Source of the DNA: Escherichia coli O157:H7
GTDB taxonomy: Bacteria > Pseudomonadota > Gammaproteobacteria > Enterobacterales > Enterobacteriaceae
Reading direction: 5' to 3' (one strand)
Assembly: GCF_013167455.1 (NCBI RefSeq)
Contig: NZ_CP038328.1
DNA length: 64,000 nucleotides
Below are positions 41,901 to 44,900 of this stretch, piece by piece. Each line of letters opens with the position of its first letter. The stretch's first letter is position 1. Position numbers: made by a program.

Positions 41901-44900
41901 ATCCAGCGCCAGCCTGGGGTCGGTATTAATGTTCTCCACCAGAAGACGCCCCATCGCTTTCACCGGATCGGGAAGACCATCCTCCATATATTCAATACCA
42001 GGAGACATCACCGCGGACGGTGGCATCTCCGGATTGTTTTCATCCGGCTGTGGTATTGCAGCCGCCTCACGGCGACGGGGTTTATCCTCCTGCTCTGATT
42101 TTTTCTGCCGGTAAACAGGAACCTCATCCACCTCCACCGTCTCGCATTGTTTACGGGCTATAAACGCAAGCACCTCCGGATCTTTTGCCAGCTGCGAGCC
42201 TTTAACCCTGGCGGTCTTCGCCGAATAACCAGCGGCAATGGCTGACGCTGTTTTGTTTTTCCCGGACATGAGCGCCAGCGCAAATTTTCGTTTTTGCGTT
42301 GTCAGCACAGCCTCCTCCCGGGTCCAGAACGCACTCAGCCGGGTATGGTTCAGCCCATTTTTCCCGGCGTCTCATGCCGCAAATGTTAACTGCTGCCTGG
42401 TTAACATTTGCTGAAAAAGCCAGTTAACATTTTTTCCGCACAACAAACTGAATAATAAAGATAAAAACCGCAAAAATGCCCGGACAGCCAGTTAACATGT
42501 TAACTGCCCTGAAACGGGAATTTTTTCTCTGCGTGAGAGGGGGGGCGGTGTCCGGGGCGATCGTTTTTTTCGCCGGATGATCCCCCCCCGGGGCGGGTCA
42601 CAGTCCGATGATATCGTCTGCCCTGCCATGACCTCCGGACACCTCCGGCAGCGTCGGGTCCGGCATACCACTCGCCGTTTCACTGACTGACTTCTGGCGA
42701 TGGCATTCGGTACAGAGCGTCCAGAGATTCGTCTCCTCATTACCACCACCGAACTGAAGTGCAATTCGGTGATCGAGTTCACTGTCACAGAGGTCAACCA
42801 CACGACCACAGAGACAGCACTGCCCGGCATCCCTGAGCCAGATACGGCGCTTGAGGGAAACCCGGGCACTACCACTGACCCGACGCTGTTCACCCTTCAG
42901 GACATTCACCCGCCGGGTGTTCAGAGTTTTGATTCTGCCCGGTAACGTACGAAGCACAGCCATGTAAAATCCTCGCCATATAACTTGTCACCAGAGGAAA
43001 GAAAATGTCATCGAAAAACCGGACCCGCAGAACAACAACCCGCAACATCCGATTTCCAAACCAGATGATTGAACAAATTAACATCGCTCTTGACCAGAAA
43101 GGTTCAGAAAATTTTTCTGCGTGGGTCATTGAATCTTGCCGCCGGGAGCTGGCAGCAGACATAAAATATGCCCGTCAGTTGACTATAAAAAAGAATGATA
43201 CACAGTATGCTCTGCGATGGCTGTTCATATAACTATTTCTTTATATTGCTGAATTTATAAAAACTCACAGACATTAGCTGTATTAATTCCGAATTGAAAT
43301 AATCAGCCATATAGAATAAAAATAAAGCATAACAATAATAATCTTCTACCCAATCAGTACATTACTGCTGTGACTCCAACACGGCAGTTTTTTTATTGAA
43401 CAGATTCCAGTTTCTTCCACCATCGCACCGGACGGGCGACCATGAGGGGAGAACGCCGCGCTCCGTTTACGCGGTAAACCCCGGTGTGTATCGTTTTTGA
43501 TTATCCCCGCACACTCTCGCAGAGGAGTCTCCCTGTCGGGCTGCGGTCTCTGTTAATGCAGGAATACGGCGACGATACGGCGCATCAGCAAAACTTAGTT
43601 CAGGCACTGAGTGCGGATATAGTCCTGTGCCCCTTCCAGCTGCTTCTGCATTGTCATCAACCGTTCTCTGAGGATGAAATAATCCCGTTCAGCGGTGTCT
43701 GCCAGTCGGGGGCCGGTTGCATTATCCACGCCGGAGGTGCCGGTGGCTTCACGCACGGTACCGGAGCAGGTGGCGTTGATCCGCAGGCGCTTACGACCAG
43801 CGGCAACATCAGCACGCAGAGTTTCATTTTCAGCTCTCGCATCGGCTAACTCCCTCGAGTATTTTGCATCGAGCGCAGCAACATCACGCTGGCGCACCTG
43901 CATGTCAGTAATGGTGGCATTCGCCTGTTCCAGCTCTCTGGCTTTTTTATCGCGCTGCGCTTTGTAGGTGAGCGCGTTGTCACGGTAATGGTTTGTTGCC
44001 AGCCACAGCGCACCACAGCCAACCGCCAGGACAATAATCACCACACACAGAACACGGTTCATCTCTCTTTCACCCCACCAGTCCCGATAACGTCAGGACT
44101 CGCCAGGCGGTGGAAAAGAAAATGGCAACCAGCATGACTAAAAATGAAATGCCGACAAGTACACAGAGGCTCTTCACCAGCGTTATGAGTTTATCTGATA
44201 TCATTAGCCACCCCATCAATCCGCCTTTGTTATTTTCCCTTTGCCTGTATCAGCCAGGACAAAATCAATCAGCATATTCGCTTCATTTACCAGCGTACGG
44301 ATTTTTGATACATGCGCGGCTTTAACCTGTTTCCACTCATTCAGCCCGGTAGCAAACACACTGGCAATGTTTTTATCCCGTTTCATGTCAGCACAAGCCT
44401 GGTTGAGTTCTTCCATCACGCTCATTTTACGGGGATTAACGACAAAACCCTTCGTCCAGTACTCGTAAAGAACATCGTCGCACTCTTCCTGATACCGGAT
44501 GACCTTATCGCGGATTTCGGGTTTTACTTTGTTGGGATTAATGGTTTGTAGCCAGCCGGCAAGTTTTCGAAGTGGCATGGACACCATATTGCGTTGTTTC
44601 CCATCCTCAGCAACCATAACGATTTCCGTTATAGTTGACGCAAAACGCTGTCTTAACTTAGCCAACTGTGATTGCCAGGCCAGCCCCATCCCCGCAACGA
44701 CAGGTTTCATGGGAACGTATGGTTCGCCATTATGGTTAACTACATAAAGAGAGTTGCCGTGAAACGGCACGGCCATCATATTCATCGGTTATTTCCTTTT
44801 AGTGATGAACCTTGTCTCACAGGAATCCAGCCCACAGAAAGGCACCGACAGCCAAACCGGTATCCTCAAGGGTCATCCTGAAAGGTTCTGTGTTGTGAGA

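What the first reader, a model, noticed from the sequence alone, without database searches (positions are those of the whole stretch)
42385..42600. Candidate cos/packaging site with GTTAACA repeats and G/C-rich symmetric element
The HNH-terS intergenic region contains five GTTAACA repeats and a strongly G/C-rich element with partial dyad symmetry. The HNH plus terS arrangement is typical of cos phages that need HNH for end cleavage.
Basis: inference. Interest (0 to 1): 0.4.

Follow-up and report, generated by a model that had tools for sequence, protein, structure and literature searches.

The report
Known HK97-type phage cos site
This is the DNA-packaging (cos) site of a common E. coli lambdoid prophage. 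Its cutting position is already published for a virtually identical Shiga-toxin phage, so it is real but ordinary.

Summary
The 289-bp HNH–terS intergenic region (42309–42597; phage sense = minus strand) carries five GTTAACA copies within 121 nt and a 73% G+C block.

The cos interpretation is supported. Phage Lys8385Vzw differs at only 2 positions across 42297–42638. PhageTerm analysis of its virion DNA gave 3' cohesive ends with the sequence CGCCCCCCCT (PMC7946995). That 10-mer is window 42538–42547, inside the G/C-rich block.

The same layout occurs at the ends of HK97 and phiE125: a G-run ending 42–44 nt before the terminus, then GAC(AC)|CGCC. TerL is homologous in all three; the three terS proteins are unrelated. 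About 70 loci encoding terS relatives keep the G-run, the flanks of the cut and the spacing.

The GTTAACA copies lie at +32 to +154 on the first-packaged side and are candidate TerS sites; binding is untested. Most relatives have a single TTAACA motif, on the terS start. There the Leu codon is TTA in 56 of 59 genes, against 2.5–6% elsewhere. The window's lineage has about 190 extra bp carrying additional copies.

The dyad symmetry is probably incidental. The region occurs in 1243 of 5426 complete E. coli genomes. Already known; low interest.

The parts
42598..42963 (-). HNH endonuclease gene, last gene of the late operon before cos
   Evidence: 121-aa ORF. PHROG 589 HNH endonuclease, 5.6e-42. 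Pfam PF01844, 3e-6. 35% identity to phiE125 gp70 HNH, E 1e-9.
42582..42589 (-). G8 run (phage sense), the conserved upstream cos element; it ends 44 nt before the top-strand cut
   Evidence: A G-run of 5-10 ends 39-45 nt before the inferred cut in most of about 70 terS-relative loci. It ends 42 nt before the terminus in HK97 and phiE125. Its function is inferred.
42548..42581 (-). Conserved spacer ATCATCC...CGATCGCCCCGGACAC between the G-run and the cut; it ends in the conserved GGACAC
   Evidence: Conserved in Salmonella phage FSL SP-016 and in the Enterobacterales relatives. GAC immediately precedes the overhang in HK97 and phiE125.
42538..42547 (-). Cohesive-end sequence CGCCCCCCCT (10-nt 3' overhang); nicks fall between 42548/42547 and between 42538/42537
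   Evidence: PhageTerm result for the 99.4%-identical Lys8385Vzw (PMC7946995). Record break point. Identity to the window. Same register as the phiE125 end CGCCCGCTTC.
42516..42537 (-). Left end of virion DNA, CTCACGCAGAGAAAAAATTCCC: conserved flank with an A-tract
   Evidence: Consensus CTCACGCNCAGAAAA(A/T)(A/T)TCCCC across the terS relatives. Metagenomic contig L076 starts exactly at the homologous CTCAT.
42489..42506 (.). Perfect 18-bp palindrome CAGTTAACATGTTAACTG (GTTAACA copies 1 and 2), +32 to +49 from the cut; orthologous to the terS start region of relatives
   Evidence: In relatives the sequence TGTAAACATGTTAACA is centred on the terS ATG.
42433..42488 (-). Spacer (61% A+T) with several A/T tracts between the palindrome and the distal repeats
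   Evidence: No IHF consensus at up to 1 mismatch anywhere in 42309-42597.
42379..42432 (.). Distal GTTAACA copies 3, 4 and 5 (42423-42429, 42400-42406, 42384-42390); copies 4 and 5 are the arms of a 12-bp perfect inverted repeat
   Evidence: The GTTAAC cores are invariant in 11 lineage variants.
41745..42308 (-). terS (GTG start after GGGAGGAGG), with an SF6/SPP1-type N-terminal HTH
   Evidence: PHROG 641, 2.6e-68. Homologues carry PF03592. A profile matches the SF6 small-terminase DNA-binding domain, 3zqp and 2cmp.
40087..41748 (-). terL, HK97-type large terminase
   Evidence: PHROG 9 and 7622. BLASTP against HK97 gp2 gives E 1e-11; against phiE125 gp2, E 9e-22.

Best explanation
The region is the cos site of an HK97-type lambdoid prophage that packages DNA with an HNH-assisted terminase. 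The phage reads on the window's minus strand. Terminase (TerS + TerL), helped by the adjacent HNH protein, makes staggered nicks on either side of CGCCCCCCCT (42547-42538). This leaves 10-nt 3' cohesive ends. DNA is then packaged from CTCACGCAGAG... (42537 downward) through terS, terL and the head and tail genes. The HNH gene, the G-run and the 10-mer are packaged last. The cut position is shown for a near-identical phage. The upstream half (G8 run, 34-nt spacer, GGACAC|CGCC) is shared with HK97 and phiE125. I infer that it is the part read by the conserved TerL/HNH nuclease pair, and possibly acts as a termination signal. The downstream half is specific to the terS family. I infer that the five GTTAACA/ATGTTAAC copies (+32 to +154) are binding sites for the HTH domain of TerS, positioned like lambda cosB. 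In most relatives a single TTAACA-containing near-palindrome sits on the terS start codon. This lineage has about 190 bp of extra DNA with additional copies and a new GTG start.
For: Gene identities. Published ends: PhageTerm gave a cos phage with 3' cohesive ends, CGCCCCCCCT, for Lys8385Vzw. Its record starts at CTCACGCAGAG and ends at ...CACCGCCCCCCCT. It differs from the window at 2 of about 340 positions. Same register in phiE125, whose right 3' extension 5'-CGCCCGCTTC-3' forms the last 10 nt of the record after GGGAC, with a G6 run ending 42 nt before the terminus. Same in HK97: G9-ATCA...ATGAC|CGCCGCCAAA, 42 nt. TerL is homologous and so is HNH, while the three terS proteins show no BLASTP similarity. 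In about 70 loci with terS relatives, the G-run ends 39-45 nt before the inferred cut, the flanks are conserved and the 10-mer itself varies. Contig L076 starts exactly at +1. For the repeats: 5 copies in 121 nt against at most 3 in simulations, and cores invariant in 11 variants. TTA encodes the N-terminal Leu in 56 of 59 unique terS genes, against 6% and 2.5% of other Leu codons; ACA follows in 52 of 59. The window lineage and L062, whose start lacks TTAACA, carry multiple upstream copies instead; other lineages with a displaced terS start (L015-18, L085) also carry repeats there. HK97 TerS binds just downstream of its cut, at +15 to +29.
Against: No ends were measured for this prophage. The PhageTerm statement in the paper is brief and its quoted coordinates contain a typographical error. 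[quoted passage not shown] The spacings between copies (8, 68, 23 and 15 nt) show no helical regularity, and there is no IHF site. The TTA-ACA codon bias could reflect an mRNA or translation-initiation constraint rather than a DNA-binding site. The related sequences are not independent samples. The HNH protein is only marginally similar to HK97 gp74 by BLASTP (E 0.078). A role for the G-run is inferred from conservation alone.
Confidence: 0.85

Rival explanations
1. The cos cut site is real, but the GTTAACA repeats are not packaging signals. They are leftover duplicates of the ancestral terS start (ATG TTA AC), or they belong to something else carried by the ~190-bp lineage-specific insert, such as the 24-codon hydrophobic ORF or an RNA hairpin.
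For: All five copies read ATGTTAAC, which is the start of terS in relatives. The palindrome's ATG opens a 24-codon ORF, MLTGCPGIFAVFIFIIQFVVRKKC, that ends inside copy 3 and is intact in 11 variants. Copies 4 and 5 form a 12-bp perfect hairpin in the predicted RNA fold. Relatives manage with a single site.
Against: The codon-level selection for TTAACA shows the motif itself is constrained, not merely inherited. Repeats of TTAACA-like motifs recur independently in other lineages where terS is displaced from cos: L062, L085 and L015-18. The overall RNA fold is not significant (z = -0.98) and there is no Rfam match. The flanks of the copies do not resemble terS coding sequence.
Confidence: 0.3
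2. The G/C-rich dyad is a transcription terminator or structural element ending the HNH/late transcript, not a cleavage site.
For: It lies 9 nt after the HNH stop codon and can pair G7 with C7 plus an inner 5-bp stem.
Against: The terminator scan finds no site there and no T-run follows it. The fold z-score is -1.1. terS and terL must be transcribed through it. The G-run keeps a fixed distance to the cut, not to the HNH stop, in relatives. The published ends map inside it.
Confidence: 0.03
3. The phage packages by a headful (pac) mechanism, as the SPP1/SF6 phages with the same TerS fold do, and the region is a pac site.
For: TerS belongs to PF03592 and matches the SF6 TerS DNA-binding domain.
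Against: PhageTerm classed the near-identical phage as cos with 3' ends. TerL groups with the cos phages HK97 and phiE125. The HNH-cos-terS layout and the sequence signature match those phages.
Confidence: 0.02

Closest known systems
cos of Stx1-converting phage Lys8385Vzw (MT225100; Zhang et al. 2021, PMC7946995)
   Same: Essentially the same sequence: 2 differences across 42297-42638, identical 10-mer CGCCCCCCCT, identical repeats, terS 99.5% identical.
   Different: The window's prophage has a G8 run instead of G7 and C instead of T at 42556. It carries no stx downstream of Q. Its own ends have not been measured.
HK97 cos (10-nt 3' overhang; gp1 TerS, gp2 TerL, gp74 HNH)
   Same: HNH gene, then cos, then terS. 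A G-run followed by ATCA ends 42 nt before the terminus (44 nt here). GAC|CGCC at the start of the overhang. TerL is homologous. The TerS site lies just downstream of the cut.
   Different: TerS is unrelated. HK97 TerS recognises one 15-bp site at +15 to +29 with an A-tract. HK97 has no GTTAACA repeats, and its terS starts 49 nt after the end (229 nt here).
phiE125 / phi644-2 / phi1026b cos (Burkholderia; 10-nt 3' extension CGCCCGCTTC)
   Same: Same register: G-run, about 32 nt, GGGAC|CGCC.... HNH gp70 is 35% identical and TerL gives E 9e-22.
   Different: Different terS family, different downstream sequence, no GTTAACA repeats.
Lambda cos (cosQ-cosN-cosB)
   Same: Three-part logic. Repeated candidate TerS sites lie between the nick site and the terS gene on the first-packaged side, like the R sites of cosB. 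A conserved element lies upstream of the nick site, in the position of cosQ.
   Different: Lambda makes 12-nt 5' overhangs, needs no HNH protein, uses the gpNu1-type TerS and has an IHF site in cosB. Here the overhang is 3', HNH is present, TerS is PF03592 and no IHF consensus is found.
SPP1/SF6 pac site with G1P TerS (PF03592)
   Same: Same TerS N-terminal HTH fold family. SPP1 TerS is reported to contact multiple points flanking the cut.
   Different: Those phages package by headful with permuted ends, and the specificity of their TerS-DNA binding is disputed.

Membership tests
HK97-type cos site (HNH-assisted terminase, 10-nt 3' cohesive ends) | Lies between an HNH gene at the end of the late operon and terS/terL | tested here: met
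   HNH 42598-42963, terS 41745-42308 and terL 40087-41748, all on the minus strand.
HK97-type cos site (HNH-assisted terminase, 10-nt 3' cohesive ends) | TerL homologous to the TerL of phages with proven 3'-overhang cos ends | tested here: met
   BLASTP against HK97 gp2: E 1e-11 over 490 aa. Against phiE125 gp2: E 9e-22.
HK97-type cos site (HNH-assisted terminase, 10-nt 3' cohesive ends) | HNH protein homologous to the packaging-associated HNH proteins | tested here: met
   Pfam PF01844, 3e-6. phiE125 gp70, E 1e-9. The pairwise match to HK97 gp74 is only marginal, E 0.078.
HK97-type cos site (HNH-assisted terminase, 10-nt 3' cohesive ends) | Sequence signature of experimentally defined ends: G-run about 42-44 nt upstream and GAC(AC)|CGCC at the overhang start | tested here: met
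   Window 44 nt, HK97 42 nt, phiE125 42 nt.
HK97-type cos site (HNH-assisted terminase, 10-nt 3' cohesive ends) | Virion DNA has unique 10-nt 3' cohesive ends at this site | not testable with these tools
   Published for the 99.4%-identical Lys8385Vzw by PhageTerm. Not measured for this prophage.
HK97-type cos site (HNH-assisted terminase, 10-nt 3' cohesive ends) | Cleavage requires or is stimulated by the HNH protein | not testable with these tools
   Shown only for HK97 gp74.
Lambda-type cos (cosQ/cosN/cosB) | IHF site between TerS-binding R sites | tested here: not met
   No WATCAANNNNTTR match at up to 1 mismatch in 42309-42597.
Lambda-type cos (cosQ/cosN/cosB) | Repeated TerS-binding sites between the nick site and terS | tested here: inconclusive
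   Five GTTAACA copies are in the right place. Binding is untested.
Lambda-type cos (cosQ/cosN/cosB) | gpNu1-type TerS and 12-nt 5' overhang | tested here: not met
   TerS is PF03592/SF6-type. The published overhang is 3' and 10 nt.
Headful pac site of SPP1/SF6-type phages | PF03592 TerS | tested here: met
Headful pac site of SPP1/SF6-type phages | Circularly permuted, terminally redundant virion DNA | not testable with these tools
   Contradicted by the published cos classification of the near-identical phage.

The most novel reading that the evidence does not exclude
Two features of this cos family may not have been described; I found nothing on them in the held literature. First, a G-run at a fixed distance of about 43 nt upstream of the cut is shared by HK97, phiE125 and this large terS family, even though their TerS proteins are unrelated. 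That would make it a signal read by the TerL/HNH pair, perhaps a cosQ-like termination or HNH-docking element. Second, the TerS recognition element of the PF03592-terS cos phages may be the TTAACA/ATGTTAAC motif. It is normally embedded in terS's own start codon, which forces a rare TTA codon even in phages with about 60% G+C. In the Stx-type lineage it has been displaced from the start codon and multiplied to five copies.
Probability: 0.4. Interest if true: 0.4.

Novelty: already known. Interest (0 to 1): 0.22.

Why it matters
The site defines the genome ends of a packaging module found in about a quarter of complete E. coli genomes. That module includes the Stx1a- and Stx2c-converting phages of EHEC and is often present in several copies per cell. 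Knowing the exact cos helps in three ways: orienting phage genomes correctly, predicting which co-resident prophages can be packaged by each other's terminase, and designing cos-plasmid or transduction assays. The comparative by-products (the fixed G-run and the codon-constrained TTAACA motif) give HK97-type packaging researchers concrete mutational targets. They do not change the picture of how such phages package DNA.

Tried and rejected
- RNA or ssDNA structure: the phage-sense RNA of 42300-42520 and the ssDNA of 42525-42600 fold no better than shuffles (z = -0.98 and -1.10).
- Known RNA families: only a chance-level miRNA hit.
- Promoter and terminator scans: one promoter-like match built from the repeats themselves on the antisense strand, and no terminator in the gap.
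- IHF site as in lambda cosB: none at up to 1 mismatch.
- Similarity of this TerS to HK97 gp1 or phiE125 gp1: none. Those two are also unrelated to each other.
- Origin of the ~190-bp lineage-specific stretch: a blastn search of the phage collection found it only in the same lineage.
- Dyad symmetry as the functional feature: rejected, because the C-run arm is missing in HK97, phiE125 and the beta-proteobacterial-type relatives while the G-run stays.
- Literature: searches for cos or cosQ together with HNH, and for the 10-mer itself, returned only PMC7946995 for this cos. Nothing on the G-run turned up. Kala et al. 2014 (PMC4000778) is not held.
- Records starting near terS: phi330 and the Burkholderia vB_ phages proved to have arbitrary or terL-based starts and say nothing about ends.

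Full report
**What is there.** The late genes of this prophage run on the window's minus strand. Their order is:
- HNH endonuclease, 42963-42598
- a 289-bp gap, 42597-42309
- terS, 42308-41745 (GTG start behind GGGAGGAGG)
- terL, 41748-40087
- a protease-capsid fusion, 40023-38086
- the portal, 37874-36510
- tail genes

These identities rest. The gap holds five GTTAACA copies: three on the plus strand and two on the minus strand. Two abut as the perfect palindrome CAGTTAACATGTTAACTG (42489-42506). Two more form a 12-bp perfect inverted repeat. Five copies within 121 nt is far beyond chance: at most 3 occurred in 300 simulations, and the rest of the 64-kb window holds only 3.

**Where the DNA is cut.** The region is 96-100% identical to 94 deposited phage records, mostly Stx1a- and Stx2c-converting phages, BP-4795, 2851, 1717 and YYZ-2008. 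It occurs in 1243 of 5426 complete E. coli genomes, with up to 7 copies per genome.

One of those phages, Lys8385Vzw, was sequenced from induced particles. Its record begins at CTCACGCAGAG and ends at ...GGACACCGCCCCCCCT. [quoted passage not shown] The window differs from it at two positions across 42297-42638: a G8 run instead of G7, and C instead of T at 42556. The cohesive 10-mer is therefore window 42547-42538 on the minus strand. Position +1 of the virion's left end is 42537.

**Independent support for the register.** phiE125 has an experimentally determined right-end 3' extension, 5'-CGCCCGCTTC-3' (PMC2920897). Its record ends ...GGGGGG-N32-GGGAC|CGCCCGCTTC. The HK97 record ends ...GGGGGGGGG-ATCA...ATGAC|CGCCGCCAAA, and HK97 has 10-nt 3' overhangs (PMC9410871). 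The window reads GGGGGGGG-ATCA...GGACAC|CGCCCCCCCT.

In all three, the overhang starts with CGCC after GAC(AC). A G-run ends 42, 42 and 44 nt before the terminus respectively. TerL is homologous among the three. The HNH protein matches phiE125 gp70. The three terS proteins show no detectable similarity to one another.

**Conservation in terS relatives.** I fetched 80 viral loci encoding relatives of this terS at 32-99% identity. About 70 of them have the same core upstream of terS:
- a G-run of 5-10 ending 39-45 nt (mostly 43-45) before the inferred cut
- a conserved GGAC/CTAG-AC
- a variable 10-mer
- a conserved CTCACGCNCAGAAAA(A/T)(A/T)TCCCC

Variable overhang bases between conserved flanks are what one expects of a nicking site recognised through its flanks. 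One metagenomic contig, L076, begins exactly at the homologous +1 position. The G-run keeps its distance to the cut, not to the HNH stop codon.

**The GTTAACA repeats.** In nearly all relatives, terS starts 38-47 nt after the cut. The start codon sits in a near-palindrome: GTGTAAACATGTTAACAGCG in Enterobacterales and TTGTTAATGGCTTTAACAG in the high-G+C group.

The N-terminal Leu is encoded by TTA in 56 of 59 unique genes. TTA makes up only 6% and 2.5% of the other Leu codons in the same genes. The following Thr is ACA in 52 of 59. So the hexamer TTAACA is selected at the nucleic-acid level.

The window's lineage differs. The palindrome is still at +32 to +49, but 229 nt separate the cut from a new terS start, GTG CTG ACA, which lacks TTAACA. 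The extra ~190 bp carry the other three copies. Locus L062, whose terS start (ATG CTA ACC) also lacks TTAACA, has two upstream CTGTTAACAA copies. L085 and L015-18, where terS is also displaced from the cut, carry TTAACAGG-type and AAAAGTTACAC repeats there.

The TerS N-terminus matches the HTH DNA-binding domain of SF6 small terminase. In HK97, TerS binds just downstream of the cut. I therefore regard the repeats as probable TerS-binding sites, in a cosB-like position. This is inference; no binding data exist, and in vitro DNA binding by this TerS family is reported as weak.

**Mechanism proposed.**
- Shown for a near-identical phage: unique ends with a 10-nt 3' overhang at 42538-42547.
- Established for HK97 and assumed here: TerL plus the HNH protein make the staggered nicks, and TerS confers site specificity.
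- Inferred from comparison: the upstream half (G-run through GGACAC|CGCC) is read by the conserved TerL/HNH pair, and may act at termination because it is packaged last. The downstream half (the A-tract flank and the GTTAACA sites) is read by TerS and is packaged first.

**What it is not.**
- No terminator or significant fold.
- No Rfam family.
- No IHF site.
- The G/C dyad is probably incidental, because the C-run arm is absent in HK97, phiE125 and many relatives.
- A pac mechanism is contradicted by the published classification and by the TerL family.

**Verdict.** The refinements are the precise cut site, the fact that the conserved features are the G-run and the flanks of the cut rather than the symmetry, and the unproven status of the repeats. 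The site is already published for an essentially identical phage, and its type (HNH-cos-terS, HK97-like) is well known. Novelty: already known. Interest is low. The comparative by-products are modest leads for packaging specialists.

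Noticed in passing
window 42424-42498 (- strand): A 24-codon ORF, MLTGCPGIFAVFIFIIQFVVRKKC. 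It starts at the ATG in the centre of the palindrome, which is the ancestral terS start codon behind a weakened SD, and ends with a TAA inside the third GTTAACA copy. It is intact in all 11 lineage variants, with about 5 synonymous changes and 4 amino-acid changes. The peptide is hydrophobic with a basic tail. It could be a vestigial leader or a real small membrane peptide. (My notebook entry gives slightly wrong coordinates; the ones here are correct.)
   Followed up: partly
L088 (LC567822.1, PPompW prophage) 2784-4242; equivalent to about window 42586: In the PPompW prophages of O157 strains, an IS110-family element (ISEc20) abuts the cos G-run. The HNH and lysis genes are missing, and tRNAs and Q follow directly. 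The G/C run may be a preferred IS110-family target, and the event probably disables packaging.
   Followed up: partly
window 43005-43232 (+ strand): A 75-aa ORF lies between the HNH gene and the lysis cassette, antisense to the late operon. It matches PHROG 949, of unknown function (5.9e-33).
   Followed up: no
window 48500-52200: The packaging module matches Stx1a/Stx2c phages, yet no stx genes lie between Q (51792-52172, -) and the 616-aa ORF (46643-48493, -). Instead there are a 237-aa ORF (49947-50660, -), which to my eye looks AraC-like, and a 167-aa ORF (49066-49569, -). Neither was checked against any family library.
   Followed up: no
L008-L014 versus window 42538-42547: The cohesive 10-mer is polymorphic among very close relatives: CGCCCCCCCT versus CGCGCCCCCT. 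The G-run length varies from 6 to 9. Prophages in the same cell could therefore have non-identical sticky ends.
   Followed up: partly
window 35290-37874 (- strand): The portal homologue is two translationally coupled ORFs with an ATGA overlap, of 454 and 407 aa. Together they cover one 859-position PHROG portal profile. In the inducible phage Lys8385Vzw the second ORF is annotated as only 245 aa.
   Followed up: partly
L015-L018, about 80 nt upstream of terS: A subgroup of terS relatives (45% identity) has no HNH gene immediately upstream of the G-run. It carries two AAAAGTTACAC direct repeats between the cos core and terS.
   Followed up: no
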